Origin: an uncultured Gammaproteobacteria bacterium | GTDB lineage: Bacteria; Patescibacteriota; Microgenomatia; CAZETR01; Amesbacteraceae | Direction of reading: 5' to 3' | DNA: 64,000 nucleotides | NCBI GenBank assembly: GCA_964518565.1 | Contig: CAZFGX010000001.1 | Span: 669,404-733,403, forward strand | Shown here: positions 4,480 through 54,526 of the stretch, piece by piece | Numbering within the stretch: the first letter of the stretch is position 1 | Layout: each line of letters begins with the position of its first letter | Program-made: the position numbers and the translations under genes | The notes under the pieces: model-generated | Database searches by the model: none | The model's input: only the letters and a program-made list of their open reading frames with translations | Told to the model about the DNA's origin: nothing

Positions 4480-5103
4480 ATGCAAGACGAAAATCCAAAT
4501 AAATCTATCAACGAACGAGGTCTTGGTGGCAAAGCCATCCCTGGCCATATCGTCGTCAACAGTGACGTCGCACTCACCGAAAAAGCCAAATGGTACGTCG
4601 TCCACACCTACTCTGGCCACGAAGCTCGTGTCGCCGAAACTCTTCGCCAACGTCTCGCCACCCTTGGCCAGACCGACAAGGTCGCCGAACTCCTCATCCC
4701 TACTCAAGATCAAATTCATATCAAATCTGGTAAAAAATACTCCGTCAAAGAAAAGATTTTCCCAGGATATCTACTGATCAAAATGATCGTCGATGACGAA
4801 TCCTGGCTGGTCGTTCGTACCACCCAAGGTATTACTGGCTTCGTCGGCGTAGGCAACAAGCCTACCCCACTCTCAGTCAAAGAAGTCGAAGCCATCATGC
4901 AATTTGCTCAGATCGGTGCACCAAAGCACAAGACCAACTTCACCACTGGCGAAGCCGTCAAAATTACCGATGGTCCATTTGCCGATTTCCTGGGCTCCAT
5001 CGAATCTATCGACGAAGCTCACGGCAAACTCCGCGTCCTGGTCTCTATCTTCGGCCGGGAAACGCCAGTCGAACTCGACTTTTTACAAGTAAAGAAGATA
5101 TAA
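4480..5103 (+). CDS. nusG: transcription antiterminator NusG (with N-terminal extension)
   Basis: NGN-domain sequence WYVVHTYSGHE and a KOW region. Canonical secE-nusG-rplK context. Confidence 0.9.
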   Translation: MQDENPNKSINERGLGGKAIPGHIVVNSDVALTEKAKWYVVHTYSGHEARVAETLRQRLATLGQTDKVAELLIPTQDQIHIKSGKKYSVKEKIFPGYLLIKMIVDDESWLVVRTTQGITGFVGVGNKPTPLSVKEVEAIMQFAQIGAPKHKTNFTTGEAVKITDGPFADFLGSIESIDEAHGKLRVLVSIFGRETPVELDFLQVKKI

Positions 5104-5115
5104 TCCCTACACTAT

Positions 5116-5541
5116 ATGGCAGCCAAAAAAATTAAAGTCATTTTAAAGCTCAATCTCCCAGCTGGTGGCGCAACTCCTGCACCACCTGTCGGTCCAGCTC
5201 TCGGTCAGCACGGTATTCCCATCATGGAATTCGTCAAACAATACAATGACCGCACCAAAGACCAAAAAGGTGACATTATCCCTGCTGTTATCACCGTCTA
5301 CGAAGATCGCAGCTTTACCTTTATCACCAAACTTCCCCCAGTCTCAGCCATGATCAAAAAGGCCTTAAACCTTGAATCTGCTTCCAAAAAACCCGGCCGT
5401 GAATCAGCCGGCAATATCACCAAAGATCAAATCCGCGAAATCGCCCAACGCAAACTCGTAGATCTCAATACTGACAATATCGAATCCGCCGTCAACTCCG
5501 TCGCCGGCACCGCCCGCTCCATGGGTATCAAAGTGATCTAA
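5116..5541 (+). CDS. rplK: 50S ribosomal protein L11
   Basis: [20 protein letters not shown] is the L11 hallmark. Confidence 0.95.
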
Positions 5542-28000: not shown

Positions 28001-29262
28001 CAGTAGACACCAACTCACCACTGGATCCCATTTCTGGCGCGGACGTAGCCGAATACTACCAAATGCCAAACGGCTATGATTCTATAAACATTGGTGACAT
28101 CGTCTCCTTGGGCTCTGAGCCAGGCAAGGCTGAAGTTGCAACAAAACCTCAAGACCGAAAAATGCTAGGTGTAGTTTCCGAAAAGCCTGGACTCACACTC
28201 GGCCAATCTGAAGGCCAAAACATGATGCCTATTGCTCTCACCGGCCGCGTACCGGTTCGTATTAGCTCTAAAAATGGCACCATTAAAATCGGCGACGCAA
28301 TCACCTCTTCAGATATACCAGGTGTAGGTATCAAGGCTACCCAACCAGGAAAAATTCTCGGAACTGCCATGGAAAACTTCGACTCAAATGACGAAGGCCG
28401 CATCATGGTAAACATCAATGTCGGATATTACCTAGGTGAAGAATCTGAACAACCCCTACTCGTCCAAAAAAATGAAATAAACATCACACCTTCTATTGAA
28501 TCTGACACATCAATGGCCACAGATAGCGCTGGATTAACAGCTGGGTCAGTCGGAGAATTTATCATTAACAAACCCTCAGTGTTCCAACAACTCTCTCAAT
28601 TCATGAATGACATAATAGTGAACGGCAAAGCGACGTTTAACAATTCAGTAGCCTTCTTGGGCAACACACTATTTAAAGGTAAAGCAACCTTTGAAAAAAC
28701 TGTAGAGTTTAATGAAGACGCCGCTGGTTATGCTGTAATCAAAGCCGGCCATCGTGCAGTGAATATTACCTATGCTACTGAGTATTCAAATAATCCATTA
28801 GTAAACACCTCTCTCGTCGTCACCAAAATTACTCCAGAAATCTACACTGATCGTGTATCTCGCGGCATCTGTAATGAGACGGCCGGCATGCAAGCCTGCC
28901 AAGACAATATGGTAAATGAGGTACTTGGAAACGATGTAAAATTTGCCATCGTCGACAGCAGTACCCAAGGATTCATGATTCTTCTCAACAAGCCAACTCA
29001 AGTAGACATGACCTTCTCATGGACAGCTACTGCAGTAACAAAAACAAAGGTAAGCACAAGTACAACCGATCCAGCTCTAGAATCAGCATTTAAAAATATC
29101 AGCGAGTCATCGTCTGACTCAGCTAGTTTAATCCAGGAGATAAACGAACAAATAGCTACAACATCAGCAATTCTAGGAAGTCAAATCAGTATAAATGACC
29201 AATTGTTAAACGAAAATTCAGCTACTTCTTCAGCCTCACCCTCAGCATCGACATCCCCATAG
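13063..29262 (+). CDS. giant (5399 aa) secreted/surface-anchored repeat protein, fibre/adhesin-like
   Basis: Single uninterrupted ORF with an N-terminal signal anchor. Thr/Ser/Gly/Asn-rich beta-type repeats and a non-repetitive C-terminal 1300 aa containing VGIGTDTPANALEV and a beta-rich terminal domain. All minus-strand ORFs in this interval are shadows. Confidence 0.85.
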   Translation: MNKRGISPIIILLVIGLATTVTFGTATLVRHYSNPFAKANLQLNLKNSPDVIDASKLAGAVLQSPVVGITQLESGKYTAFQIQDADIQNIDNTPTLSLSARLLSLSNDPISLSGPNKIDYIELKNHKTSNAKVVIPGIVQVKTKSGDIINVLLSQAKIRNGQIIDAFYGQVVDSAHLIAGVGEISGNLTYPAVEIGGQPANSGISSLVRQAMRVVPSLSLDSRPISISQTQGTVVLGATTDMLQSLNLDFSAPYDAVFDEKSGTWTLPGQSGVSISTIATDRQVAKAIEDKISSGDLVLPTATNGITEIKSANDKLTVTTNESLVTLRLSLVNSIDSDSIIDGSITNSDIYSGANIGDSKLDQIKSANKVAGSAIQLSTTGGLENNSGLSLLTSCSINQVLKWDGSDWICATQSGGGGSSIDIQENDSTITSAAAFLDFLGSDFTVTNSPSGEANVAIDYTNSAITRSNQNETISGTWTFSSTPTITNLPNSALANSGITVTAGTGLSGGGAVSLGGSVTLSSTLGTAIDSSEITNDTIVNADINSAAAIDFTKLASLTAGYILLGNSSNVVTATALSGDITIDSSGVTTIGADKVALGTDTTGNYVAGATTNGGLALTGTEAGTLGLITSCSDNQVLKYTAAGGWACANDTTGGGSGNSFETISTASGTSPVADSSTDTLSLTAGSGITIVGDASNDSIAIAATLGNTIDSSEITNDTIVNADINSAAAIDFSKLGALTAGNILLGNSSNVATSTAMSGDITIDSSGVTTIGADKVALATDTTGNYVATVTGNSQISVSGSGSENAGVSLSIAADSIGDSQLAFNTGQNLTTSSTPTFSALTLNGNLTLANAETLSNGTDGQITFGRNDAGTVTLTAADNDSTAALTILPGGAAGLTLGGSSTTAITITTDGTGDSEVVLPANSVGNSELVNSSITINSAGILSGGASVSLGGNITLTATEADTLNTVAGRGASTATALTLSSTSNAITAGTLTINGDTFTDLTGTGLTISGGALQTTLGTAIDSSEITDDTITASDLAATLTFADGDLLDLSNINNSSTSEGLKLPQATACTSATANGQICWDNDTFVLYVGNGTTASSISNPFGVSIDSSEITNDSIVNADINSSAAIDFSKLATLTAGNVLLGNSSNVATSTALSGDVTVDSSGVTTIGADKVALATDTTGNYVATVTGNSQISVSGSGSENAGVSLSIAADSIGDSQLAFNTGQNLTTASSPSFASQTLSNTTNQLVLGTTNTTTISSTAPSTSRTYTIPDFGSNDSFVGLAATQTLTNKTISGSSNTLSNIGNSSLTNSSITINTSGILTGGASVSLGGNITLTATEADTLATVTGRGASTSTTLSLAAFTASDTFTQTYTPAGTVASPRGVILTPTFGIDATDQTLAALYINPNTNSNSDSGDSLNGINIAAITASSANETAILIGSAGGGSTGWNNILAVNSSVIINGSGVLQSAALSGTYSNALTLSSTSNAITAGTVTVNSDAITDFTGTGLQMNSGSLETTLGTDITNSEINASAAIDFSKLATLTAGNVLLGNASNIATSTTLSGDITVDNSGVTTIGADKVALGTDTTGNYVSSATTNKGLTLSGTEGGSLGLQNCADNEILKYSTGTSTWSCASDATGGTINSFETITTTSGTSPVADSSTDTLTLTAGTGITVTGDSSTDTITLAATLGTAIDSSEITNDTIVNADINSAAAIDFSKLAALTAGNILLGNGSNVATSTTLSGDITIDSSGVTTIGANTVALATDTTGNYVATITGNSQISVSGSGSENAGVSLSIAADSIGDSQLAFDTGQNLTSTSTPTFGALTLNGSLTLANSETIANSTNSQFTFGRNDAGTVTLTAADNDATAALSILPGGAAALTLGGSSTTAVTLTTDNTGDAEVVLPANSIGNSELVNSSITINSAGILTGGASVSLGGNITLTATEADTLDAVAGRGASTSTALTLSSTSNAITAGTLTISGDAFTDLTGTGLTISGGALQTTLGTAIDSSEITDNTITASDLNATLTFADSDLLDLSSINNSSASEGLLLPQATACTSATANGQICWDNDTFVLYVGNGTTATSISNPFGASIDSSEITNDTIVNADINSAAAIDFSKLATLTAGNVLLGNASNIATSTTLSGDVTVDSSGVTTIGADKVALTTDTTGNYVASVTNGNGITGGNGGSEGAALTLAVDQTYAFTWTGLQTHTNTITDDGSQSIFNLTLGNDANTDTVSAIKVAATSAATGDADTIYGLDIANLASANATVAEQAIHIGSGWDNIFDINGTLISATEIGLLDGLSGTILTSGNYSSTLDSVYVNVGESPAAGDITGSFSGGLTIGSDSVALATDTTGNYVATVTGNSQISVSGSGSENAGVSLSVAADSIGDSQLAFDTGQNLTSTSTPTFGSLTLNGSLTLANSETIANSTNSQFTFGRNDAGTVTLTAADNDATAALSILPGGAAAFTLGGASTTAITLTTDSTGDSEVVLPANSIGNSELVNSSITINSAGILTGGASVSLGGNITLTATEADTLNSVAGRGASTATALTLSSTSNAITAGTLTINSDAFTDLTGTGLTISGGALQTTLGTAIDSSEITDDTITASDLNATLTFADGDLIDLSSINNSSTTEGLKLPQATACTSATANGQICWDNDTFVLYVGNGTTATSISNPFGASIDSSEITNDTIVNADINSAAAIDFSKLAALSSGNILVGSVGNVATSVAMSGDVTIDNAGATTIGADKVALTTDTTGNYVASVTNGTGITGGNGGSEGAALTLAVDQSTAFTWTGLQTHTNTITDDGSQSTFNLTLGNDANTDTISAIKVAATSAATGDIDTVYGLDIANLASANGTVLEQAIHIGTGWDNIFDLNGTLISATELGLLDGLSGTLLTSANYTSTLDSVYVNVGESPAAGDIAGSFSGGLTVGADSVALATDTTGNYVATITGDSQVSVSGSGSENAGVSISIAANSIADAQLAFNTGQHLTTTSTPTFGSLTLNGSLTLANSETIANGTDGQILFSRNDAGTVTINAADNDANADLVIRAGGTGALTFGNASNTSITLTTDSTGDAEVVLPASSVGNSELVNSSITINSSGILTGGASVSLGGNITLTATEADTLNSVAGRGASTATALTLSSTSNAITAGTITVNADAITDFTGTGITISGGALQTTLGTAIDSSEITDNTITASDLNATLTFADSDLIDLSAINNSSTTEGLLLPQATACTSATANGQICWDNDSFTLSIGNGTTTTSIGNPFGASIDSSEITNDTIVNADINSAAAIDFSKLAALSSGNILVGSVGNVATSVTMSGDITIDNTGATTIGADKVALTTDTTGNYVTSVTNGTGITGGNGGSEGAALTLAVDQTTAFTWTGLQTHTNTITDDGSQSIFNLTLGNDANTDTISAIKVAATSATTGDADTVYGLDIANLSSADGTVAENAIHIGTGWDNVFDLNGTLISSSELTLLDGVSGTLVTTTTNPTSADISGSFSAGFTVAANAVALATDTTGNYVATVAGDSQISVSGSGSENAGVSLSIAADSIGDSQLAFNTGQNLTTTSTPTFGSLTLNGSLTLANSETIANGTDGQILFSRNDAGTVTINAADDNANADLVVRAGGTGALTLGNSSNTAITLTTDSTGDGEIVLPANSIGNSELVNSAITINSAGILSGGASVSLGGNVTLTATEADTLNTVAGRGASTATALTLSSTSNAITAGTITVNSDGITDFTGTGLQMNSGSLEATLGTSIVSGEITDDTITASDLNATLTFADSDMIDLSSINGSSTTEGLKLPQNTSCASSTANGQICWDNDGFVLYIGNGTTTTAITGGGGNSFETITTTSGSSPVADSSTDTLTLTAGTGMTVTGDSSTDTITLATTLGTAIDSSEITNDSIVNADINSAAAIDFSKLATLSSGNILVGSVGNVATSVAMSGDVTIDNTGATTIGADKVALTTDTTGNYVQSITNGTGISGGNGGGEGSALTLAVDQTTAFTWTGLQTHTNTITDDGAQSTYNLTLGNDANTDTVSGVAINVTSTATGDADTLYGLNIANITAQAVVTETAINIGTGWEQAINAGGTLISLSELQLIDGGIALSELTDSGTLTAGTVDINGGAIDGVTIGGSSAGAGTFTTLTATGDVTMNDAGADNILIGAAADTLTLTSNSLSLTDDNWSISTSGALTTSGAINANGGITTSTSNTALAFTVNGSGDFTFTADSDSQVQISLDDSSTNTGLELLRLTRTTSSTAADSIGGYISFYIENDTSTAEAARILANLRDANVATTVGTDITMYVARDGSTGELIDGMTVYVDAANKWVCGNANKLGNDGYDCFGFQIGTSNIINFSFDGSNRFNVDYSSGSTQLALYSVNSGDDLLVKTLGDQAISFDQNNDGNNMVIDTDGQVGIGTDTPANALEVLSTTTPQFRVSYDTSNYTTFAVSSTGVLTIDYTGTAGGITLADFTGGGSGCSALETNSSGVLACGTDDTGGSSTMQGVYDNDVNGSDVTIAMNTTDGSIIFTEAAGTNHQITTTAAPTLDQLALTNTGFGTTTDGVDGLSIVFEQADDADATDTNAGLNVSVSGASGDLGDILSGISINTTAQTANNREIGLTIGTGFDEDIRFASASAIIRMQDGGTLSFMDGSYGQGATKDQPNARVIEYFSTANYGVFEAGGFVNIDGSYYQDNFSIPMTAVTADVTSRTNRFGDHGNWSFDEAGTGGGSTATNSTKYGCTLSQGGSGAGAGTNTSFGRLEFSPDLGTHTHTAADSACVAHLGIGTGTNTAGVLNAAYKYVQYFKVGFSSGFTNNNSANQAFVGAHNYTEAWGQNWSSIAATHGFIGFANLISTTTATDAQGGTQWNGFARVGNAISSVACGTTGNISTASNAWALMRIEARATNDVHFFIDSDVSNGIALTECGAGVSSNISTRNLNPAMNVVHQQNLSSAGNSWTMYVDLYAHVQDDPKPENGPIAFSDTVDTNSPLDPISGADVAEYYQMPNGYDSINIGDIVSLGSEPGKAEVATKPQDRKMLGVVSEKPGLTLGQSEGQNMMPIALTGRVPVRISSKNGTIKIGDAITSSDIPGVGIKATQPGKILGTAMENFDSNDEGRIMVNINVGYYLGEESEQPLLVQKNEINITPSIESDTSMATDSAGLTAGSVGEFIINKPSVFQQLSQFMNDIIVNGKATFNNSVAFLGNTLFKGKATFEKTVEFNEDAAGYAVIKAGHRAVNITYATEYSNNPLVNTSLVVTKITPEIYTDRVSRGICNETAGMQACQDNMVNEVLGNDVKFAIVDSSTQGFMILLNKPTQVDMTFSWTATAVTKTKVSTSTTDPALESAFKNISESSSDSASLIQEINEQIATTSAILGSQISINDQLLNENSATSSASPSASTSP
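14600..25200 (+). repeat. intragenic tandem repeats of about 1.2-1.8 kb (6-7 units, roughly 85-90% nt identity)
   Basis: The motif coding for IDSSEITNDTIVNADINSAAAIDF recurs near 14641, 15181, 16381, 18141, 19341, 21111, 22861 and 24731. TGTTGGGACAACGAC recurs at 16311, 19271, 21031, 22791 and 24521. Confidence 0.8.
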
Positions 29263-30880
29263 CATCTAATTCAGGTGCAGCCTCAAACATAAACTTACGA
29301 GTAACTTCAGTACATTTATCAGGGTAGCGATCACAAGTATAAGTCTGAAGCAGATAAACATCTTTTCCTTTAGCTAATTGTTCTTGAACAAATTCTTGGG
29401 CAGAAGTGTTGTATAAAAAAGATCCATAGTAAACAACAGTGTGTCCATGCAACAAAGACAAAGCGGTCATCGCATGTATGACAACCGCATCAGAAGAAAT
29501 ACGCGGTGTCACGTAATCCTCAATATATGTATGAACATCCCGAGGTCCCTTATCCACATACTCATAATAAGGAGATACAGAAATCATTCTTTTATATCGA
29601 AAAACAGTCGGCAAAAGCGACAAAGCCACCACAACACTTAAAAGTATAAAAAAACTCTTTCTCTGACGATGCACAAAATACGCTCTGAGTAGTGATGCAG
29701 AATACCAAACAGCTAAAATCGTCAAGGGAACGACTAAAATTAAAAAATATCTACCATAAGACCCAGAATACTCAACAGAAAAAAACTCCCCAGCAAAATA
29801 AAACGAATAAATTAAAAAATAAAATCCAAACCAAGCAACAAACGCCCACTTACGAACATCTTTTATGGTCAAGATGCCCAGCAATGAAAATACAGTAAGA
29901 ACCACCGGCCACTCAGGCCTTTTAAATAAAGACAAAATATTGGGTAATGTATTCCTAATAACATATCCCACACTAAATGCTTCTAAAGGAGTTGCGTCTC
30001 CACAACACCACGTTTGACCTAAAACAGATAAAGACACGATAGCTCGGAATCCAATCAAGCATCCACTAACCAGCGCGTAGCCTACATCCTTTTTAGTAAA
30101 AAGAGGCAAACCCAACTGTTTACGAATAGCAAAAATAGCCATTAGCTGAACTCCCAAAAATAAAAAGGCTTCCAAACGCACAAACAATAAAAGTAGGGTA
30201 GCCGAAAGCAAAAATAACCAACTCCCAAACGCTGGACGAGATCCATACCAAGCAGCTCCAATGAAAGCAAGTAAAGCAAAAAAAACAAAGTAAGAATCCA
30301 ATCCAATAGACAAACTCCAAAAAATAGGCACTGGTAATATAGCAAAAATTCCAGCAGCCACCAAGCCCATACTACGTGACCGTAAATACATAACTACAGC
30401 TATAAAAACAAAAATAATTTGGCTAGTGCTAAAAATTCTTGAACCAATAAATAGGTATTTTTCACTATAACCGAACACTTTAAATATCCAAGCATTTAAA
30501 GTCGGAACTGTGACTCGCGCAACCAAATCCGGATCGCCTGTGAGAAAAGTATCATTTGTCGCAACGTTTATCAGACGCTGAGTGCCGAATTTTGCAAAAG
30601 TTACAGCCCCGGAAAGATAACGATCCTCATCAAAATAAATTCTATGTTGATCTGGACTATAAAAACGTAATAGTCCTCCAACAACAACAATAACTCCAAG
30701 CAATACCCAAATCCAAACAGACTGAGATCGACAATATTTAAAAATTTTCCCTAGCTGAAACAACCCAATAAATACTAAAACAAAACCACATATACTTACA
30801 ACCCAAGGAGACACATCCGAGATAAGCCAACTTCCCATATTACTTATTATCACTATCTGCTTCATCAATTGCCACACCAA
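29222..30880 (-). CDS. GT-C fold membrane glycosyltransferase (PMT/ArnT-like, GT39/GT83 type)
   Basis: More than 10 TM helices. The first extracytoplasmic loop carries RFYSPDQHRIYFDEDRY (DE motif). The 3' end overlaps the 3' end of the giant gene by 41 nt, convergently. Confidence 0.7.
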   Translation of the reverse strand: MVWQLMKQIVIISNMGSWLISDVSPWVVSICGFVLVFIGLFQLGKIFKYCRSQSVWIWVLLGVIVVVGGLLRFYSPDQHRIYFDEDRYLSGAVTFAKFGTQRLINVATNDTFLTGDPDLVARVTVPTLNAWIFKVFGYSEKYLFIGSRIFSTSQIIFVFIAVVMYLRSRSMGLVAAGIFAILPVPIFWSLSIGLDSYFVFFALLAFIGAAWYGSRPAFGSWLFLLSATLLLLFVRLEAFLFLGVQLMAIFAIRKQLGLPLFTKKDVGYALVSGCLIGFRAIVSLSVLGQTWCCGDATPLEAFSVGYVIRNTLPNILSLFKRPEWPVVLTVFSLLGILTIKDVRKWAFVAWFGFYFLIYSFYFAGEFFSVEYSGSYGRYFLILVVPLTILAVWYSASLLRAYFVHRQRKSFFILLSVVVALSLLPTVFRYKRMISVSPYYEYVDKGPRDVHTYIEDYVTPRISSDAVVIHAMTALSLLHGHTVVYYGSFLYNTSAQEFVQEQLAKGKDVYLLQTYTCDRYPDKCTEVTRKFMFEAAPELDAMGMSMLRVRLKK

Positions 30881-32864
30881 AATCCTTAGCGACTTTCCTT
30901 ACCCGTTCCCGTTCATCAGGAGGAAGTGGATAAGAATTATATCTCTTAAAATAATGTTCAGCTTTCGGGATATCGTGCAAACATCCTGCATACAAAACAG
31001 CAAGATCCAATACTGCCTTTGACACATTTGTTTCCTTGCGCTGGTCTAAAGCCAAAATAAACCATTTCTCAGCTAATCGACACTCACCCTTAGCTGCTTG
31101 AAGCCGAGCCATTTCCACCATGACGGAAAACGACCAATTTGCATCAGGAATTTCCTTTAAAATCCGCTCTGCATCAGCATAACGCTTCTGAATCCGCAAA
31201 ACAGTCGCCAACTGACCTCGGGCTAAAACTGCGTGTGGATAAAGTTTTACAAATCTTTCCAGTTCCAAAATAGCTTCATTACTTTTTTCAGGATCAAATC
31301 CCAAACTACGTCCAAACGTTACAGCGGAAAACCCCCTTGTCCTCAAATAATCATTTGACACTGCCGTTTTTCGCACATATACAAAGCCATCTTCATCAAA
31401 ATAAACAAGAGACCAATCAGGACTCTTACTTGTCGTGGCTATAAGATAATCAGCACTCCGACTCAAAAGAAGTGCATTAATGTTCTGGTCACGATAAAAC
31501 CGTTCAAATGCACTATTCTGTTCAGGCACCAATAAAGAATAAACATTAATACTTTCATATTCATCAAAAAACAAATCCATTACATCCAAATTCGCTAACC
31601 GTGGATATTGCACATAAAACATGTAAGCCGAAATATCAGGAGTAGTCGCTATATTTCCTTCTATATGTAGACTTCGAAGAGATCTTTCAGACTCTTGAGG
31701 TAAACGAAGAAGCAAGGCTTTGGGCGGAAAAAAAATAGTAAATACAGTTATCCCAAAAGCCAACCCGCAACAAATCAAAAAGATTTTTTTATAAAAAACT
31801 TTCTCCCAAAAGAGGTTCGTTAATATCCACGCAAACGGTACAATAAGCAAAATCCCTGAAAAAGGGACAAAACGAACCCACCAATACCCACTTAACGAAA
31901 GAATAAGTAAAGGTAAAAATACAGTAACACTAACAAATCCATTCCAGCCTCTACGTACCACATAAATCAAAAAACCCACAACACTAAACAGGCTAAGTAA
32001 TAGGAAAATTACATAGGGGTATGTGGATATATTTTCTCGAATATAATTTGAATTTGCTGCAATCAATATTCCAGATAGCGAGCTGTAAACCTTATTCGCA
32101 CCCGACAAGAGCCGCAAGTTATCAATATTCAACCACAATCGAATACCGTGGGGATTTATCAGTGTCAACCCAATACTCACAACCGACCACACGATCAAAG
32201 GGCTGATTTGTTTATTTGGCCGCTTGAAATCCAATTTCCATATTCGACTACAAATTATATAAATAGATTCCAAAATACATATCAAAATTAACAACCCAAA
32301 ACCCAAAGCAATATACTCACCCGCCAACTGTGCCCACAACCACATCACAAGTGGAAAAAGAATAAAAAGTGTTTTTCCTTTCAAAACCCATCGCTGATAC
32401 ACAAAAAAGAGGATCAACAACATAGCGGGAACCAACACCAGTGGATGAAGTTTCCAAAAAATCCCCACAAAAACCGCACTAAACAACCACAGCACGAGTA
32501 AAAGAGGCTGAGGAATTTTTAGTTCTTTACCCAGAAAAACAATGAGCCAACCTATTCCAAACCACAATAAAATTAACACAGAAACAACACTCCATGAACC
32601 GGCCAAAAATAGTACATAACTTAAAAGATCAAATAGCCACGAGGTGGCAACGAGTTGGTTTTCAACAGGAATTACTTTAAAAGAGATATCTTGGTGATCA
32701 GGTATGTGTCTATTTTCCAAAATAAACCTTCCAATACCCACATGAATCCATGAATCAGGAGCCATAAATGTAGCCAAACTTCCCACACGAAAAAGAATAC
32801 ATACTGAAATCACACCCATAACCAAAAACAACCAAGACTGTTTAATATGCGTCCACATACTCAT
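30840..32864 (-). CDS. polytopic membrane protein with C-terminal TPR repeats (probable GT-C-type glycosyltransferase)
   Basis: About 12 TM helices followed by soluble TPR-like helices (RGQLATVLRIQKRYADAERILKEI ... AEKWFILALDQ). Confidence 0.6.
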   Translation of the reverse strand: MSMWTHIKQSWLFLVMGVISVCILFRVGSLATFMAPDSWIHVGIGRFILENRHIPDHQDISFKVIPVENQLVATSWLFDLLSYVLFLAGSWSVVSVLILLWFGIGWLIVFLGKELKIPQPLLLVLWLFSAVFVGIFWKLHPLVLVPAMLLILFFVYQRWVLKGKTLFILFPLVMWLWAQLAGEYIALGFGLLILICILESIYIICSRIWKLDFKRPNKQISPLIVWSVVSIGLTLINPHGIRLWLNIDNLRLLSGANKVYSSLSGILIAANSNYIRENISTYPYVIFLLLSLFSVVGFLIYVVRRGWNGFVSVTVFLPLLILSLSGYWWVRFVPFSGILLIVPFAWILTNLFWEKVFYKKIFLICCGLAFGITVFTIFFPPKALLLRLPQESERSLRSLHIEGNIATTPDISAYMFYVQYPRLANLDVMDLFFDEYESINVYSLLVPEQNSAFERFYRDQNINALLLSRSADYLIATTSKSPDWSLVYFDEDGFVYVRKTAVSNDYLRTRGFSAVTFGRSLGFDPEKSNEAILELERFVKLYPHAVLARGQLATVLRIQKRYADAERILKEIPDANWSFSVMVEMARLQAAKGECRLAEKWFILALDQRKETNVSKAVLDLAVLYAGCLHDIPKAEHYFKRYNSYPLPPDERERVRKVAKDFGVAIDEADSDNK

Positions 32865-33531
32865 ATACTAATCTAAAAATCTTTTCAAACAAATCATCAC
32901 TTTTAGCCATCATGCACAATACGTAGGGTCTCTTCGGTCGGTAGACCAAACGGCAATCTCCAACGTTATTTTTTGATTTGAATCGAAACATGGAAACATC
33001 TGCTTCAGACACGTGTTGAACATGAGATTTTAAAATTTTATTTGAATTTTCCAAATCTAAATAAGTAGATAAATACAAATTTCTCAAAACAGATGAAAAA
33101 TTCTTAGGACTCACGACCAAATCAGAATCGTTTTGACTCTGAGGAAAATCTAAATAATCAAAAATAGGCTGATGAGAATTAAGGCTTTCTAATTCATTCA
33201 AAAGCGGAATCTGAGTCGTAGCAAACATGGGCACCTTTTCGTTTACCCCCACATAGACACCTGAGGGTAAATATTCAAAATATATACCCATGGCAGTATT
33301 CGCCACAATTTGCTCCAGTTGAGTTCGTAAGGAGACAAAGTTTATAAGAACATCATTTGGCTGGTTTATAAATACTCTCGGTGATAAAAACCGATAGGAT
33401 AAAACACTTGCAGATTGGAGCGATGAAGCCTGAACGGGATTATAGACGCGACGAAATATGATAACAAATAAAACAATATTTGTGACACATGATGCACAGA
33501 AAAAAACCCAAAATGAATGTTTTTTTGTCAT
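32842..33531 (-). CDS. degenerate paralog of the class A beta-lactamase-fold proteins (lacks SxxK and SDN)
   Basis: Shares the YFEYLPSGV..G.NE, SPKN.SSVLR.LY.S.YLD and RPYVLCMM blocks with its two neighbours, but the catalytic motifs are missing. Confidence 0.55.
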   Translation of the reverse strand: MTKKHSFWVFFCASCVTNIVLFVIIFRRVYNPVQASSLQSASVLSYRFLSPRVFINQPNDVLINFVSLRTQLEQIVANTAMGIYFEYLPSGVYVGVNEKVPMFATTQIPLLNELESLNSHQPIFDYLDFPQSQNDSDLVVSPKNFSSVLRNLYLSTYLDLENSNKILKSHVQHVSEADVSMFRFKSKNNVGDCRLVYRPKRPYVLCMMAKSDDLFEKIFRLVYEYVDAY

Positions 33532-34469
33532 GGAGTAGGTAATTTTGACACATAGTCATATACAATAGTAGAAATCCCCTTCATAGTAACATCAGCTTCT
33601 GCCTCTGAAGAATTAATCATCATACACAACAAATACGGTCTTTGAGGTAAATAAAAAATTCCGCAGTCAGTAAATACATCACTTACTCCTGGCTTTCCCT
33701 TTCGTACACCTATTTTGTGAGCAACAGTCAAATCTTTTGGCACCCCAGCTACAATCATGTCGGAAAACTCACTACGACTAAGCAAATCCAGAACTGAATT
33801 GGAATTTGTTGGATTTATAAAAGACGAAAAATATAAGCTTCGCAAAATTGAAGAATAATTCTTAGGGGAAATCGTTGGCTCTTCACCAAAATCTTTAGGA
33901 ATTCCCAAATAATCATAAACATCCACTATTTGTTGCTGAGATACAAGTTTGAACAACAAATTTCTGGCAGTATTATCAGATTCTGCCAAAATTTTTTCCA
34001 AAGCGACAGACACGGTTAGTCGAGTACCTACCCCTTGTTTATACAACTCACCAAAATTCGGGTCTATGTCTTGTTCGGCTATTTCGATTTGATCCCCCGT
34101 ACCAATCCTTCCACTTTCGACTTGTTTCAAAACCGCCATGGCTAAAGGAATTTTCAACAACGACGCTTGAATAAATTCTTGATTTTCATGAATGCCAATA
34201 GACGTCCCACTGGGCAAATATTCAAAATACAATCCAACATTATCCTTTGTAGCCAGTATCTCGTTGAGAGCGGAACGTAAAACCACAAAATTAGTTAACA
34301 AGTGATATTGATGTCCTGCAAAAACACGCCGTGAGATATAAGGATACTGCTGGCTTAAATCTGAAGCCTGAGACACACCACTTTCCAAAGCTTTGGGTGA
34401 AAAATTAATTAAAAACGCCGCTAAAACAATATTTATACCAACAGAAACACAAAACAAAACATATTTCAT
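33528..34469 (-). CDS. class A beta-lactamase-fold serine hydrolase-like protein with signal anchor
   Basis: ASLLK (SxxK), ESDNTARNLL (SDN motif, close to the TEM sequence SDNTAANLL), an EEP...SP omega-loop-like segment, and HKIGV in the KTG position. Confidence 0.7.
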   Translation of the reverse strand: MKYVLFCVSVGINIVLAAFLINFSPKALESGVSQASDLSQQYPYISRRVFAGHQYHLLTNFVVLRSALNEILATKDNVGLYFEYLPSGTSIGIHENQEFIQASLLKIPLAMAVLKQVESGRIGTGDQIEIAEQDIDPNFGELYKQGVGTRLTVSVALEKILAESDNTARNLLFKLVSQQQIVDVYDYLGIPKDFGEEPTISPKNYSSILRSLYFSSFINPTNSNSVLDLLSRSEFSDMIVAGVPKDLTVAHKIGVRKGKPGVSDVFTDCGIFYLPQRPYLLCMMINSSEAEADVTMKGISTIVYDYVSKLPTP

Positions 34470-34471
34470 AA

Positions 34472-35401
34472 TTAGTAATCCCTAATATATGAATATACAT
34501 CCTGAGAAATACTCTTAAACACGGATCGAGCCACATCTTCACTAGACTTCATCATCAAACATAAAATGTATGGCCGCTTCGGCATATATACTATTCCACA
34601 ATCTGTATATACCGAATCTGGAGTATCAGGTGAATAAACACCAATTTTATGAGCCACTTTTACCTGTTCAGGTACACCAGCTCGCAATTTATCGGTAAAT
34701 TTACTTTGAGTCATTAAATCCAATATCTCATTTGAATCAGCCATATCTAAATAAGAAGATAGATACAAGCTTCTAAGTACCGAAGAATAATTTTTAGGTG
34801 TCACCACTACAGTATTTTGTTCTAATTCCTTAGGAATATCCAATGAATCAAACACATCTTCAATCGTTCCTGCAGGCAATCTATTAAACAACACACTTTT
34901 TGCCGTATTGTCAGACTCGGTAAGCACCAAACGAACCGCATCATTTACTGAAATTTTCGCCCCCACCCCCTGTTTCCAAAAATCCCCAAAATTATTATCT
35001 ATATTCTCAGGTTGTATGGTTAATATTTCATTCATATCCAGAGCATGGTTCTCTTTCTGTTTATATACACCCATAACCATAGGGACTTTCAAAAGCGACG
35101 CCAATACAAACTGTTTTTTTTCATTAATCCCTATAGATACACCCGAAGGCAAATATTCAAAATACACACCAAGTTCACCTGAAACAGTCGAGGAATTAAT
35201 TACTTCTCGTAATTCTGACCGCAATTTCACAAAATTTATAAGTATTTCATTCTTCTCACTCGCCATTATCCTCGGAGACAAAAATTGAAATTCCTGCTTA
35301 TCATAAACATGCAAATGACGAAATGGCCTACGGAGCAAAAAGTAGCCATTGATGATAAGGCTAACAATCAAAAACCCTAGCAAAAGCATCCTGCTTCGCA
35401 T
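34472..35401 (-). CDS. class A beta-lactamase-fold serine hydrolase-like protein with signal anchor (paralog)
   Basis: ASLLKVPMV (SxxK), ESDNTAKSVL (SDN) and HKIGV. Start taken at MRSRM (35401). The track ORF extends to 35428. Confidence 0.7.
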   Translation of the reverse strand: MRSRMLLLGFLIVSLIINGYFLLRRPFRHLHVYDKQEFQFLSPRIMASEKNEILINFVKLRSELREVINSSTVSGELGVYFEYLPSGVSIGINEKKQFVLASLLKVPMVMGVYKQKENHALDMNEILTIQPENIDNNFGDFWKQGVGAKISVNDAVRLVLTESDNTAKSVLFNRLPAGTIEDVFDSLDIPKELEQNTVVVTPKNYSSVLRSLYLSSYLDMADSNEILDLMTQSKFTDKLRAGVPEQVKVAHKIGVYSPDTPDSVYTDCGIVYMPKRPYILCLMMKSSEDVARSVFKSISQDVYSYIRDY

Positions 35402-35426
35402 GAATATATGCAGTATACTCCAACCC

Positions 35427-36350
35427 ATGCCAAAAAAAATTGTCCTTACTGGTAGTTCAGGTTTTTTAGGCCAGCACCTTTTCTCAAGCCTGAAAAGAGT
35501 CTACCCAAAAAGCATTATCAGTACTCCCAGTTCAAAAGATGCAGATCTAAGAATTCTTGAAAATTGTCTAAAAATTACTACTAAAGCGGATTTAGTAATC
35601 CACGCAGCAGCTAATGTTGGAGGTATTGGTAAAAATCAACAACTTCCCGGTACCTTGCTTTACGACAACGCCATCATGGGTCTGTATATGATCGAAGCAG
35701 CTAAATTAAATAAGGTGTCTAAAACAATAGTTATAGGTACGGTATGTGAATACCCCAAATATACCGACATTCCGTTCAAAGAATCAGATATATGGCTCGG
35801 ATATCCTGAATCAACCAACGCGCCCTACGGACTAGCCAAAAAACTTCTCCTTGTTCAAGGTCAAGCATATCATCAAGAATTTGGCATAAATATCATCCAC
35901 ATCCTACCCACAAATTTATATGGACCACACGACCACATAGACGCACAATATGCTCATGTAATCCCCGACCTAATTCGCAAATTTCATACCGCAAAGAACA
36001 CAAAACAACCCACTGTCACACTCTGGGGCGACGGCTCAGCCACCAGAGAATTCATGTATGTAGCAGATGCGGCTGATGCAATTGTACTAATTAGCAAAAA
36101 ATACGATTCCCAAGATCCAATAAACATTGGCTCAGGCGAAGAAATCTCTATTAAGGACCTAGCCGAACTAATAAAAAATAAAATAGGGTATACGGGTGAA
36201 ATAATTTGGGACACCAGCCGTCCAAACGGCCAACCTCGTCGGCTAATTGATCATTCTAAACTTGCGAGTCTGAAATTTAAACCCAAAACAAATATTTCCA
36301 CTGGACTAGATAAAACAATTAATTGGTATATCAAAAGCATTCAAACATGA
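35427..36350 (+). CDS. NAD(P)-dependent epimerase/reductase, GDP-L-fucose synthase (Fcl/WcaG)-like
   Basis: Rossmann start KKIVLTGSSGFLG, then AAANVGGI, GTVCEYPK, and NAPYGLAKK (YxxxK). The track's start at 35349 is a TTG. ATG 35427 fits the family's N-terminus. Confidence 0.75.
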   Translation: MPKKIVLTGSSGFLGQHLFSSLKRVYPKSIISTPSSKDADLRILENCLKITTKADLVIHAAANVGGIGKNQQLPGTLLYDNAIMGLYMIEAAKLNKVSKTIVIGTVCEYPKYTDIPFKESDIWLGYPESTNAPYGLAKKLLLVQGQAYHQEFGINIIHILPTNLYGPHDHIDAQYAHVIPDLIRKFHTAKNTKQPTVTLWGDGSATREFMYVADAADAIVLISKKYDSQDPINIGSGEEISIKDLAELIKNKIGYTGEIIWDTSRPNGQPRRLIDHSKLASLKFKPKTNISTGLDKTINWYIKSIQT

Positions 36351-37537
36351 ACAATCTGCAACGTTTCTATCTCAATCAGCATTCAAACTTAATCAACCAT
36401 CTAGTACCAGTTGGTGCCCATTCCAACTATCGAGTACTAAATGACAATATTGGCGAACAAACAGATATTTTAAAAACTCTAGAAAAAGCCCGAAGTGAAT
36501 TGTCTGCCAATGGTCGGATAGTCTTCACATCTATTAATTTCCTATGGCAACCCATAGTTACCCTAGCTGAGTACCTAAAAATCAAAAGGCCACAACCGCA
36601 ACAAAGCTGGCTATCACATACCGACATAAAAAATTTACTCTATCTTGCAAATTTTGAAGTTGTCACATCAGGCACCCACCTCCTATTGCCTATCTATATC
36701 CCTTATTTCAGTTCATTTATAAACCAATATATAGCTCGTCTTCCTATTATTAAACACCTTTGCCTTATTCAGTATTTCGTCGCCAAAAAAATACCCCAGA
36801 CAAACCCAGACAAAGACTATAGTGTATCTATTATCGTCCCAGCCAGAAACGAATCAGGAACTATAGAGACCATTATCAAAAACCTACCTTATCTAGGCAC
36901 CCATACAGAAATTATTTTTGTCGAAGGTCATTCAAAAGATGGTACCAACACAACTATTCGCCAAGCAATTACAAAATTCAAACATAAAGATATAAAACTA
37001 ATTACTCAAACCACTACATCTGGCAAAGGCGATGCCGTTAGAAAAGGTTTTAATCGAGCCACTGGTGACATACTTGTGATATTTGACGCAGATCTATCCA
37101 TGTCCGCAAATGAATTACCCATTTTTTACCACGTGCTTAGAACCCACAAAGCAGACTTTGTCATGGGTTCGAGACTTATTTACCCCATGGAAAACCAAGC
37201 CATGAGGTTTCTAAACATTTTAGGCAATAAAGCATTTAGTCTCATTTTTTCTTGGATTTTAAATCTACCAGTAAAAGATACGCTCTGTGGCACAAAGTGT
37301 TTATTTAAAAAGGACTATCAGTTAATAGCTAAAAATAGAGCATATTTTGGCGACTTTGATCCCTTCGGCGATTTTGACCTCATTCTTGGCGCCTCAAAAG
37401 CAAATCTAAAAATTATCGAAGTTCCTATTCATTACAAAGCAAGAGTCTATGGCAAAACCAACATTAGTCGTTTCCGCCACGGTTGGTTACTAGTACAAAT
37501 GACTTTATTTGCCGCCAAAAAGCTCAAATTCTTTTAA
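36347..37537 (+). CDS. GT2 glycosyltransferase, DPM1/GtrB-like polyprenyl-phosphate sugar synthase with N-terminal extension
   Basis: ATGA overlap with the upstream gene. VSIIVPARNESGTIETII, FVEGHSKDGT and GKGDAVRKGFNRATGDILVIFDADLS are GT2 signatures. Confidence 0.75.
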   Translation: MNNLQRFYLNQHSNLINHLVPVGAHSNYRVLNDNIGEQTDILKTLEKARSELSANGRIVFTSINFLWQPIVTLAEYLKIKRPQPQQSWLSHTDIKNLLYLANFEVVTSGTHLLLPIYIPYFSSFINQYIARLPIIKHLCLIQYFVAKKIPQTNPDKDYSVSIIVPARNESGTIETIIKNLPYLGTHTEIIFVEGHSKDGTNTTIRQAITKFKHKDIKLITQTTTSGKGDAVRKGFNRATGDILVIFDADLSMSANELPIFYHVLRTHKADFVMGSRLIYPMENQAMRFLNILGNKAFSLIFSWILNLPVKDTLCGTKCLFKKDYQLIAKNRAYFGDFDPFGDFDLILGASKANLKIIEVPIHYKARVYGKTNISRFRHGWLLVQMTLFAAKKLKFF

Positions 37538-38218: not shown

Positions 38219-38962
38219 ATGGCATTTATTACCAAAAAGAAACTCCTTATTGGCACGGTTGTCTTACCATTTATCGCCGGAATTGCTGGCGGCGGTTATT
38301 ATTTCTACAAACAATATAGCACTACCAAGTCCCAACTAGAGCAACTCAAGTCTCAAGCTCCAAACAATGCTTCAGCTGAGGAAAACCAAAAAACCGTCTC
38401 CCAAGTAGCCAAGCTCATGGACCTCCCATCAGATCAGCCAACAGTAGCAACCATCACAGACAAAGAAAAGCTTAAAGATCAGCCATTTTTTAGCCGTGCA
38501 GACAACGGTGACAAGGTTTTAATATTCGCCGCCTCTAAAAAAGCCATTATCTATAGACCTAGTACAAACAAAATTGTAGATATTGCCCCAATCAATATCT
38601 CAAATGCCACACCCTCTGGTCAAACCGCTCAGCCGACTGGAAAAGTAGCCGGAGCCACGGCCTCCACACCCACGACTAAACCCCTGAGCGTACTACTGGT
38701 AAATGGTACAGATTCTTCTGGCTTGACCAACAAATTCGAAGCCTCTGTCAAAAAAGTAATTACCGGAGCCACTGTCACCAAGGAACAAGGCCAAAAACAA
38801 GATCATGACAAATCAGTCATTGTCGTCTCAAAAGATGAATTTAAAGACGCCGCCGACAAACTCAGCAAAGAGTTAGGTATATCTCTGGGAGATTCCCCCT
38901 ATGGCGAAGATCTAGCCGGCAAAGCTGACATCGTAGTTCTATTCGGCACAGATAAAAAATAA
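38219..38962 (+). CDS. membrane-anchored LytR_C-domain protein
   Basis: N-terminal TM helix. C-terminal VLLVNGTDSSGLTNKFEASV...DIVVLFGTD resembles the LytR C-terminal (cell envelope-related) domain. Confidence 0.6.
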   Translation: MAFITKKKLLIGTVVLPFIAGIAGGGYYFYKQYSTTKSQLEQLKSQAPNNASAEENQKTVSQVAKLMDLPSDQPTVATITDKEKLKDQPFFSRADNGDKVLIFAASKKAIIYRPSTNKIVDIAPINISNATPSGQTAQPTGKVAGATASTPTTKPLSVLLVNGTDSSGLTNKFEASVKKVITGATVTKEQGQKQDHDKSVIVVSKDEFKDAADKLSKELGISLGDSPYGEDLAGKADIVVLFGTDKK

Positions 38963-54488: not shown

Positions 54489-54526
54489 AAAGTTAGACAT
54501 ACTTATACATTTCGATTCTGCCAAAA

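What the first reader, a model, noticed from the sequence alone, without database searches (positions are those of the whole stretch)
32842..35401. Three tandem class A beta-lactamase-fold paralogs, one with the catalytic motifs deleted
Two neighbours carry clear SxxK (ASLLK), SDN (ESDNTARNLL / ESDNTAKSVL, very close to TEM SDNTAANLL) and KTG-position (HKIG) motifs behind signal anchors. The third copy (32842-33531) keeps the flanking blocks but has lost SxxK and SDN. A tandem expansion with a pseudo-enzyme member inside a glycosylation cluster suggests these are not antibiotic resistance enzymes. They may be acyl- or peptidyl-transferases or binding proteins acting on a cell-wall or glycan substrate.
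Basis: partly seen in the sequence, partly recalled or inferred. Interest (0 to 1): 0.5.

Follow-up and report, generated by a model that had tools for sequence, protein, structure and literature searches.

The report
Tandem PBP-like hydrolases plus dead paralog
Three adjacent genes in a tiny-genome (Patescibacteria) bacterium encode membrane-anchored relatives of penicillin-binding cell-wall peptidases rather than antibiotic-destroying beta-lactamases; one is a selectively maintained, catalytically dead truncation, and the family usually sits beside the tail end of a giant surface-fibre gene.

Summary
Three tightly packed minus-strand genes are paralogs: C (34472-35428), B (33528-34469) and A (32842-33531). 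B and C match Pfam Beta-lactamase2 over its full length. They keep Ser70-x-x-Lys73, Ser130-Asp-Asn and Lys234-x-Gly. They lack the omega-loop segment holding Glu166 and Asn170, carry Ile instead of Thr/Ser235, and score far below NCBI's class A cut-off.

By sequence and by predicted fold, their nearest solved relative is PBP-A of Thermosynechococcus, a DD-carboxy/endopeptidase. I therefore read B and C as membrane-anchored PBP-A-like cell-wall peptidases, not resistance enzymes.

Copy A lacks the region from the nucleophile through SDN, and also the KxG strand. It is still a real gene: an ortholog carries the same deletions, and dN/dS is 0.19. It occurs only in a narrow clade.

The family itself is common in Patescibacteria and has already been counted as "class A beta-lactamases" in resistome surveys.

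New context: in 49 of 51 related loci that carry the domain, the gene lies next to the 3' end of a giant fibre gene. That fibre gene ends in a phi29 gp12-like autocleaving chaperone domain. Here two GT-C-type membrane proteins lie between them.

Function is inferred; nothing was assayed.

The parts
34472..35428 (-). Copy C: membrane-anchored PBP-A-like serine hydrolase (318 aa from the first ATG; probable start at 35401)
   Evidence: PF13354 E 6.5e-38; family HMM 442 bits; ASLLK, SDN and HKIG present; groups with single-copy orthologs such as L006.
33528..34469 (-). Copy B: membrane-anchored PBP-A-like serine hydrolase (313 aa)
   Evidence: PF13354 E 2.2e-39; AF2 model pLDDT 92.2, pTM 0.85; Foldseek top hit PBP-A, E 9e-21, TM 0.82; phmmer top PDB hit Tll2115/PBP-A, E 1.3e-17.
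32842..33531 (-). Copy A: truncated, catalytically dead paralog (229 aa). It keeps the TM helix, the juxtamembrane motif, the beta-sheet and the terminal helices.
   Evidence: Family HMM E 4.5e-51 with positions 103-171 missing; no SxxK/SDN/KxG; ortholog in L001 with the same deletions; dN/dS 0.19 against L082; AF2 pLDDT 79.7; Foldseek top hit still PBP-A, E 4e-7.
30840..32864 (-). 674-aa polytopic membrane protein with a C-terminal TPR domain, immediately downstream (23-nt overlap with copy A)
   Evidence: TPR Pfam hits at aa 529-641, all below Pfam's curated cut-offs; orthologs directly follow the hydrolase gene in 12-17 related loci; membrane part unassigned.
29222..30880 (-). 552-aa polytopic membrane protein, probable GT-C glycosyltransferase (PMT_2-like)
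   Evidence: The window protein has no Pfam hit. Orthologs do hit PMT_2: L010 at 28.2 bits against a cut-off of 26.1, and 2 of 9 orthologs with best E 1.7e-10. Invariant DEDRY loop motif.
13063..29262 (+). Giant (5399 aa) Thr/Ser/Ala/Gly-rich protein with an N-terminal anchor, convergent with the hydrolase operon
   Evidence: ORF; composition and N-terminus; only its C-terminal ~500 aa is conserved next to family genes, in 51 loci.
27985..28482 (+). Conserved C-terminal block of the giant protein (aa ~4975-5140): phi29 gp12-like intramolecular-chaperone autocleavage domain, invariant D-L-A-E-x-Y
   Evidence: PF11962 Peptidase_G2 30.9 bits against a cut-off of 25; profile hit to gp12 starting at the first residue of fragment 3gqh, E 0.002; PHROG matches for 13 of 15 members.
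35349..36350 (+). Divergent neighbour: GDP-L-fucose-synthase-like NAD-dependent epimerase/reductase (probable start at 35427)
   Evidence: PF01370 E 3e-46; NCBIfam GDPFucSynFcl 270 bits, below its cut-off of 500.
36323..37537 (+). GT2 glycosyltransferase resembling polyprenyl-phosphate hexose transferases
   Evidence: PF00535 E 2e-22; best NCBIfam matches are AglJ and dolichyl-phosphate hexose transferase, all below their cut-offs.
38219..38962 (+). 247-aa membrane-anchored LytR_C-domain protein, a recurrent neighbour of the family
   Evidence: Found near the family gene in 31-34 loci; 9 of 9 orthologs hit LytR_C, best E 1e-7.

Best explanation
B and C are type-II membrane-anchored, extracytoplasmic penicillin-binding-protein-like serine peptidases of the PBP-A/class-A-lactamase lineage. 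Inferred mechanism: Ser103 (Ambler 70), activated by Lys106 (Ambler 73), attacks a D-Ala-D-Ala or cross-link peptide bond of a peptidoglycan stem peptide. Ser164-Asp-Asn and Lys252 assist proton shuttling, and the peptidyl-enzyme is then hydrolysed (DD-carboxypeptidase/endopeptidase). The omega-loop segment carrying Glu166 and Asn170 is absent, so a beta-lactam acyl-enzyme would not be turned over efficiently. They should therefore bind penicillins and not destroy them. Copy A lost the helical subdomain with the nucleophile and the KxG strand before the two sampled lineages split, and selection has kept it since. It most likely acts as a non-catalytic partner (scaffold or regulator). It would work through the parts it still shares with the family: the TM helix with conserved Ser/Asn, the juxtamembrane motif, the beta-sheet and the Cys pair. 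The operon continues into two GT-C-type membrane proteins and faces the 3' end of a giant fibre gene. I infer that the hydrolases remodel the wall locally, in connection with export, glycosylation or anchoring of that fibre. Shown here: homology, motif state, fold, selection and synteny. Inferred: substrate, topology, the role of copy A and the link to the fibre.
For: Homology and fold: PF13354 full length. PBP-A is the top hit by phmmer (E 1e-17), by family profile (97 bits, E 7.6e-27) and by Foldseek on a pLDDT-92 model (E 9e-21, TM 0.82).

Motifs over 121 family members: Ser, Lys, SDN(T) and H-K-x-G are invariant. TEM Arg164-Ala172 has no counterpart, and there is no invariant acidic residue in that loop. 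PBP-A Leu158 and PER-1 'NEAQMH' fall in insertions relative to the family profile.

Published biochemistry: PBP-A is a DD-carboxy/endopeptidase that lacks the omega-loop glutamate (PMC11189452).

Other support: some family members also carry weak Peptidase_S11 hits. NCBIfam class A scores 88-91 bits against a cut-off of 200.

Copy A: same deletions in the L001 ortholog; dN/dS 0.19 over 229 codons with no indels; family invariants retained outside the deleted parts; predicted to fold.

Context: LytR_C protein, GT-C, GT2 and sugar-nucleotide genes. Giant-fibre C-terminal domain within 6 kb in 31 of 48 well-flanked loci. The 3' end of the fibre gene faces the hydrolase gene in 49 of 51 loci, in two different orientations.
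Against: No activity was measured. Identity to PBP-A is only 23-24%. The KTG threonine, which binds the substrate carboxylate in PBPs and lactamases (own knowledge), is Ile in 96% of the family, so the substrate may differ from a canonical D-Ala-D-Ala terminus. Position 193 is Asp or Glu in 77% of members and could in principle substitute as a general base. I could not inspect model coordinates. A published study reports 'some beta-lactamase activity' for two CPR class-A-like proteins of unknown relation to this family (PMC9145738). The synteny with the fibre gene could be inherited gene order without functional coupling. The IMC-domain assignment rests on marginal scores.
Confidence: 0.55

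Rival explanations
1. B and C are genuine class A beta-lactamases that protect the cell (or its host) from beta-lactams, and the tandem array is a resistance gene amplification.
For: SxxK, SDN and KxG are present. Sources label homologs 'beta-lactamase class A'. CPR resistome papers count about 1600 class A genes and report some LC-MS-detected beta-lactam degradation for two expressed CPR proteins.
Against: The Glu166/Asn170 omega-loop segment is absent family-wide. NCBIfam class A scores 88-91 bits against a cut-off of 200. Thr/Ser235 is replaced by Ile. The nearest relative is a PBP. The proteins are membrane-anchored. One array member is catalytically dead yet conserved. The conserved neighbours are cell-envelope genes.
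Confidence: 0.08
2. The enzymes act on the giant fibre protein or another non-peptidoglycan substrate. For example, they may process it or transfer it covalently onto the wall (a sortase-like acyl transfer by a PBP fold), or act as esterases/amidases on a glycopolymer. This is.
For: The family gene is adjacent to the 3' end of a giant fibre gene in 49 of 51 loci, often with gaps under 100 nt and in two orientations. Ile replaces the carboxylate-binding Thr of KTG. The local operon includes GT-C proteins.
Against: No precedent was tested here. All catalytic motifs are those of DD-peptidases, and the closest characterised enzyme acts on muropeptides. The fibre's own C-terminal domain already supplies an autocleavage mechanism. 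Adjacency does not identify a substrate.
Confidence: 0.2
3. B and C are non-turnover binding or sensor proteins for beta-lactams or muropeptides, like the BlaB/BlaR-type penicillin-recognising proteins. Copy A is one more step along the same loss of catalysis.
For: BlaB (2wuq) and BlaR1/MecR1 sensor domains appear among the sequence and fold hits. One paralog has already lost catalysis.
Against: There is no cytoplasmic output domain, only a single TM helix. Every catalytic residue needed for acylation and peptide turnover is invariant across 121 members, which argues for an enzyme.
Confidence: 0.1
4. Copy A is a decaying pseudogene or an assembly/annotation artefact with no function.
For: No Pfam hit. 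It evolves faster than B and C (pN 0.365 against 0.26-0.30). It is restricted to two 50%-identity clusters among 1.84 billion representatives.
Against: The same ORF occurs in independent assemblies (L002, L082, L001). It has identical deletion boundaries and an intact frame after synonymous saturation. dN/dS is 0.19 at low divergence. It is translationally coupled in the operon.
Confidence: 0.05

Closest known systems
PBP-A (Tll2115) of Thermosynechococcus elongatus and its cyanobacterial family (PDB 2j7v, 2j9o)
   Same: Best hit by sequence, by profile and by fold. Same SxxK, SDN and A-H-K-x-G motifs. No catalytic omega-loop glutamate. Experimentally a DD-carboxy/endopeptidase that binds penicillin (PMC11189452).
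   Different: Only 23-24% identity. The family here has an N-terminal TM anchor plus a conserved juxtamembrane motif. Its omega loop is even shorter (7-8 residues fewer). It has Ile instead of Thr in KTG and an invariant Cys pair on strands beta4/beta5. Its activity is untested.
Class A beta-lactamases (TEM, PER, TLA, CTX-M)
   Same: Same fold (TM ~0.8), with Ser70, Lys73, Ser130-Asp-Asn132, Lys234 and Gly236 aligned.
   Different: The Arg164-Ala172 segment with Glu166 and Asn170 is missing. Residue 235 is Ile. NCBIfam class A score is under half the cut-off. The proteins are membrane-anchored rather than secreted.
LRA-5, a metagenomic class A 'precursor' lactamase lacking Glu166 (PDB 8eo5)
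   Same: A class A fold without the catalytic glutamate, among the top fold hits.
   Different: LRA-5 keeps a full-length omega loop (a V166E mutant was crystallised as 8eo7). Its sequence match is weaker than PBP-A's.
CPR 'class A beta-lactamases' of resistome surveys (Maatouk et al., PMC8651080, PMC9145738)
   Same: Most likely the same or overlapping gene set: about 1600 class-A-like genes in CPR, enriched in Microgenomates.
   Different: Those papers interpret them as resistance or pleiotropic enzymes from motif presence. In the passages I retrieved (term searches, not the full text) I found no treatment of the omega-loop loss, the PBP-A affinity, the dead paralog or the giant-gene linkage.
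phi29 gp12 pre-neck appendage protein (Peptidase_G2 autochaperone), for the neighbouring giant gene
   Same: The conserved block aligns to gp12 from the first residue of its crystallised C-terminal fragment, 'DFAEYFE' against 'DLAExY'. Pfam PF11962 is above its cut-off for the window protein.
   Different: E-values are marginal. Most orthologs miss the Pfam threshold. The host protein is a 5399-aa cellular protein, not a phage appendage.

Membership tests
Class A beta-lactamase (Ambler) | Ser70-x-x-Lys73 nucleophile motif | tested here: met
   S103/K106 of copy B align to TEM S70/K73 and are 100% conserved in 121 sequences. Absent from copy A.
Class A beta-lactamase (Ambler) | Ser130-Asp-Asn132 loop | tested here: met
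   S164-D-N-T is 100% conserved. Absent from copy A.
Class A beta-lactamase (Ambler) | Omega loop with Glu166 (general base for deacylation) and Asn170 | tested here: not met
   TEM Arg164-Ala172 has no aligned counterpart. PBP-A L158 and PER-1 NEAQMH lie in insertions relative to the family. The loop has no invariant acidic residue; position 193 is D/E in 77%.
Class A beta-lactamase (Ambler) | Lys234-Thr/Ser235-Gly236 | tested here: inconclusive
   K and G are invariant, but residue 235 is Ile in 96% of members.
Class A beta-lactamase (Ambler) | Score at or above NCBIfam bla_class_A (NF033103) cut-off | tested here: not met
   91.0 and 88.2 bits against a cut-off of 200.
Class A beta-lactamase (Ambler) | Efficient hydrolysis of beta-lactams | not testable with these tools
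   Needs nitrocefin/penicillin kinetics on purified protein.
PBP-A-type class-A-like DD-peptidases | Closest sequence and structural similarity to PBP-A rather than to lactamases | tested here: met
   PBP-A ranks first (E 1.3e-17; Foldseek E 9e-21, TM 0.82; profile E 7.6e-27).
PBP-A-type class-A-like DD-peptidases | Absence of the omega-loop catalytic glutamate | tested here: met
   This property of PBP-A is described in PMC11189452.
PBP-A-type class-A-like DD-peptidases | DD-carboxypeptidase/endopeptidase activity on (amidated) muropeptides, and penicillin acylation | not testable with these tools
   Biochemical assay required.
PBP-A-type class-A-like DD-peptidases | Orthology with the cyanobacterial family | tested here: not met
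   Only 23-24% identity. The family has its own TM anchor, juxtamembrane motif, KIG and Cys pair. It is a distinct Patescibacteria family, not an ortholog.
Pfam PF13354 Beta-lactamase2 | Score above the gathering threshold | tested here: met
   B 135.5 bits and C 130.7 bits against a cut-off of 22. Copy A has no hit at E <= 1, but it matches the family-specific HMM at 171 bits.
Pseudoenzyme (catalytically dead, selectively retained paralog), for copy A | Loss of all catalytic residues, with homology retained | tested here: met
Pseudoenzyme (catalytically dead, selectively retained paralog), for copy A | Purifying selection and conservation in other genomes | tested here: met
   dN/dS 0.19. The ortholog has the same deletions after synonymous saturation.
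Pseudoenzyme (catalytically dead, selectively retained paralog), for copy A | Expression and a non-catalytic function | not testable with these tools
   Needs transcript/proteome data and interaction assays.

The most novel reading that the evidence does not exclude
Across Patescibacteria, a membrane-anchored PBP-fold acyl-enzyme is a dedicated accessory of giant gp12-like surface fibres. It either opens the peptidoglycan locally so the fibre can pass, or covalently couples the autocleaved fibre to the wall, which would be a sortase-independent anchoring route. In this lineage the system has diversified into two active enzymes plus a truncated non-catalytic subunit that regulates or scaffolds them, together with GT-C glycosyltransferases.
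Probability: 0.18. Interest if true: 0.7.

Novelty: new variant of a known kind. Interest (0 to 1): 0.45.

Why it matters
Thousands of Patescibacteria genes are currently counted as class A beta-lactamases in resistome surveys. If this family consists of PBP-A-like wall peptidases, those counts overstate resistance potential, and an unrecognised low-molecular-weight PBP class emerges in bacteria with minimal genomes.

The selectively retained truncated paralog is a natural example of a PBP/lactamase fold surviving loss of its catalytic helical subdomain.

The conserved pairing with giant fibre genes offers a testable lead on how ultrasmall epibionts assemble their largest surface structures through their own cell wall.

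Tried and rejected
- The promoter/terminator scan of 28.8-36 kb found no more sites than shuffled sequence, so it was uninformative.
- The first dN/dS attempt, against L001, was saturated (pS >= 0.75), so no ratio could be computed.
- The dN/dS printed for the downstream TPR gene is invalid, because the two sequences were offset by two codons. I do not use it.
- The 674-aa membrane protein could not be assigned beyond TPR repeats by Pfam, NCBIfam or a PDB profile.
- A profile of the 552-aa protein found no solved relative.
- Pfam on ten other giant C-termini mostly missed the Peptidase_G2 threshold, so that call stays tentative.
- A term search of the Saccharibacteria Tn-seq paper for lactamase, penicillin, carboxypeptidase, S-layer, 'large protein' and peptidoglycan found no occurrence.
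- I considered a BlaR-type sensor and rejected it, because there is no output domain.
- I considered a recent pseudogene for copy A and rejected it on selection and orthology.
Full report
**1. Observation**

The region holds three consecutive minus-strand ORFs:
- C, 34472-35428 (318 aa)
- B, 33528-34469 (313 aa)
- A, 32842-33531 (229 aa)

The genes are packed like an operon. C and B are 2 nt apart, B and A share an ATGA overlap, and A overlaps the next gene by 23 nt.

B and C match Pfam PF13354 (Beta-lactamase2) end to end, with E 2e-39 and 6.5e-38. A has no Pfam hit.

A is nevertheless 36-41% identical to B and C. It scores 171 bits (E 4.5e-51) against an HMM built from the family. HMM positions ~103-171 are missing, which is the stretch from the catalytic serine to just past SDN. 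The KxG strand is also gone.

**2. What B and C are**

Against NCBI's curated class A model they score 91 and 88 bits, where the cut-off is 200.

The best solved relative is Tll2115, i.e. PBP-A of Thermosynechococcus. This holds by three methods:
- phmmer, E 1.3e-17
- a 36-sequence family profile, 97 bits, E 7.6e-27
- Foldseek on a confident AlphaFold model (pLDDT 92.2, pTM 0.85), E 9e-21, TM 0.82, 23-24% identity

True class A lactamases follow at lower scores.

I aligned 121 family members with TEM-1. The results, in copy B numbering with Ambler numbers in brackets, are:
- Ser103 (70), Lys106 (73), Ser164-Asp-Asn-Thr (130-133), His251-Lys252 (234) and Gly254 (236) are invariant.
- Residue 253 (235) is Ile in 96% of members, in place of Thr or Ser.
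- TEM Arg164-Ala172, which contains Glu166 and Asn170, has no counterpart.

Independent HMMER alignments agree on the last point. PBP-A's Leu158 (the Glu166-equivalent position that was mutated to Glu in 2j9o) falls in an insertion relative to the family, and so does PER-1's NEAQMH.

No acidic residue in the short loop is invariant. Position 193 is Asp or Glu in 77% of members.

PBP-A has been shown to be a DD-carboxypeptidase/endopeptidase specific for amidated muropeptides. It differs from class A lactamases by lacking the omega-loop glutamate (PMC11189452).

I therefore read B and C as PBP-A-like DD-peptidases that would be acylated by beta-lactams but would not hydrolyse them efficiently. 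This is an inference from homology and motif state. No activity was measured.

**3. Family-specific features**

- An N-terminal helix (residues 2-22, pLDDT 96) with conserved Ser9 (88%) and Asn13 (93%).
- A juxtamembrane motif at positions 42-65, with several residues above 95% conserved, that TEM lacks.
- Two invariant cysteines, 269 and 282, on the neighbouring strands 265-272 and 279-286. If the hairpin is in the simple register they face each other. That would suggest a disulfide and an extracytoplasmic location, but this is inference.

**4. Copy A is a maintained gene**

A relative whose copy-B ortholog is about 60% identical (L001) has the same gene order. Its 235-aa ortholog of A has the same two deletions at the same boundaries.

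At that divergence synonymous sites are saturated (pS 0.78). pN is 0.365 for A, against 0.26 for B and 0.30 for C. So A evolves faster but remains constrained.

Against a 93%-identical relative (L082) there are no indels, and dN/dS is 0.19 (dS 0.20, dN 0.038).

The AlphaFold model of A has moderate confidence (pLDDT 79.7). It keeps the TM helix, a five-stranded sheet and the terminal helices. Its best fold match is still PBP-A (E 4e-7, TM ~0.6).

A retains the family invariants that lie outside the active site: the TM Ser/Asn, the juxtamembrane motif, YFEYLPSG, the SPKN-SS-LR-LY helix, and DC...RPY.LC. This fits a non-catalytic partner role.

An exhaustive phmmer search of 1.84 billion representatives found only two proteins that match A in one continuous stretch. 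Every other strong hit is a full-length family member matched in pieces. The dead paralog is therefore confined to a narrow clade.

**5. Distribution and duplications**

The family is large and comes mainly from Patescibacteria. Source labels include Gottesman-, Roizman-, Levyi-, Chisholm-, Uhr-, Andersen- and Nomurabacteria, Saccharibacteria and Peribacteria. Some TPA MAGs labelled Gammaproteobacteria look mislabelled.

Of 79 genome loci, 71 hold one copy within about 8 kb and 8 hold two. The three-copy form occurs only in this lineage.

A rough neighbour-joining tree places B and C in a 15-member Microgenomates-type subclade. C lies next to single-copy orthologs, and B is more diverged. A is a long branch whose nearest sequences by distance lie in the same subclade. 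Independent tandem pairs exist elsewhere.

Resistome surveys already count about 1600 'class A beta-lactamases' in CPR, especially in Microgenomates, and report some beta-lactam degradation for two expressed proteins (PMC8651080, PMC9145738). The gene family as such is therefore not new.

**6. Context**

Downstream in the same operon are two membrane proteins:
- A 674-aa polytopic protein with C-terminal TPR repeats. Its membrane part could not be assigned.
- A 552-aa polytopic protein. The window protein has no Pfam hit, but its orthologs reach the Pfam PMT_2 threshold (28.2 bits against 26.1; 2 of 9, best E 1.7e-10). All nine share an invariant DEDRY loop motif. This points to a GT-C glycosyltransferase.

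Divergently upstream lie a GDP-fucose-synthase-like reductase, a GT2 resembling polyprenyl-phosphate hexose transferases, and a methyltransferase. A TM-anchored LytR_C protein also lies upstream. It recurs near the family gene in 31-34 loci, and 9 of 9 of its orthologs hit LytR_C.

However, the two GT-C-type genes accompany the hydrolase in only 12-17 loci.

**7. The most conserved neighbour is a giant gene**

The window's 5399-aa ORF (13063-29262) is rich in Thr, Ser, Ala and Gly and has an N-terminal anchor. It converges on the operon.

In 51 related loci an ORF near the family gene matches only the last ~500 residues of this protein. In 49 of those 51, the 3' end of the giant gene faces the hydrolase gene. 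28 are convergent and 21 are co-directional, often with gaps under 100 nt, and both arrangements occur within Saccharibacteria.

Among loci with at least 4 kb of flank on both sides, 31 of 48 carry the domain within 6 kb. This is a lower bound.

The shared ~140-aa block has an invariant D-L-A-E-x-Y motif. For the window protein it reaches the Pfam Peptidase_G2 threshold (30.9 bits against 25). As a profile it hits phi29 gp12 starting at the first residue of the crystallised C-terminal fragment (E 0.002). It also matches phage PHROGs for 13 of 15 members.

Most other orthologs miss the Pfam threshold, so I treat the autochaperone assignment as probable, not established.

I found no paper describing this linkage. 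Large proteins in Patescibacteria have been noted as putative adhesins (PMC11809585).

**8. Mechanism and rivals**

- Best-supported reading (confidence about 0.55): B and C are membrane-anchored PBP-A-like wall peptidases. A is a retained non-catalytic partner. The set works on the envelope in connection with the giant fibre and its glycosylation.
- Genuine resistance lactamases (0.08): contradicted by the omega-loop loss and the curated-model scores.
- Action on the fibre or another non-peptidoglycan substrate (0.2): favoured by the synteny and the KIG substitution, but untested.
- Binding or sensor proteins (0.1): no output domain, and the catalytic residues are invariant.
- Copy A as junk (0.05): contradicted by selection and orthology.

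**9. Novelty and score**

The family is a known, annotated kind, so the finding is not categorically new. Three things go beyond the passages I read and the literature searches I ran:
- the evidence that these 'class A lactamases' of Patescibacteria are PBP-A-like and lack deacylation machinery
- the selectively retained truncated paralog
- the conserved pairing with giant gp12-like fibre genes

I rate the finding a new variant of a known kind, with interest 0.45.

Noticed in passing
window 54497-64000 (+): A second giant open frame of at least 3167 codons runs off the window end, so the ORF lister did not show it. It is Thr/Gly/Ser-rich and shares repeat blocks with the first giant (70% identity over 133 aa). 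Its N-terminus reads like a MerR/excisionase-type HTH ('LTIQEAAKILKVSTKTLRRWEAQGLIVPER'), followed by a TM segment and then the giant ectodomain. This is an odd HTH-TM-giant fusion.
   Followed up: partly
window 11235-13070 (+): A 611-aa protein with HTH_17 plus a dCache_1 sensor domain overlaps the start of the first giant gene by 8 nt. It may be a membrane-bound one-component regulator of the giant gene.
   Followed up: no
window 27985-28482 (+) and loci L003-L081: A conserved ~140-aa block with invariant D-L-A-E-x-Y sits near the C-terminus of giant proteins in 44-51 Patescibacteria loci. It aligns to the start of the phi29 gp12 autochaperone fragment. The parts C-terminal to it vary between loci (H-type lectin, Ig-like, K1-lyase_C).
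   Followed up: partly
window 38219-38962 (+): A TM-anchored LytR_C-domain protein (~240 aa) recurs near the family gene in 31-34 loci, usually divergent and about 1 kb upstream.
   Followed up: partly
window 1-64000: GC skew is strongly negative (-0.07 to -0.31) in every 2-kb bin, whichever strand the genes are on. GC content rises to ~0.49-0.51 inside the giant genes, against ~0.36-0.41 around them.
   Followed up: no
copies A, B, C (B numbering: C269, C282; S9, N13): Two cysteines on adjacent strands are invariant in all family members, including the dead copy. The TM helix carries conserved Ser and Asn. These suggest a disulfide and helix-helix contacts in the membrane.
   Followed up: partly
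loci L003, L005, L008, L012 and others: Many TPA MAG records that carry this Patescibacteria-type gene neighbourhood are titled 'uncultured Gammaproteobacteria/Pseudomonadales'. Their taxonomic labels look unreliable.
   Followed up: no
window 35389-35427: With the most plausible starts (copy C at 35401 or 35389; the reductase at 35427, 'MPKKIVLTG'), the divergent intergenic space is only about 25-37 nt. Any promoters would have to lie inside coding sequence.
   Followed up: no
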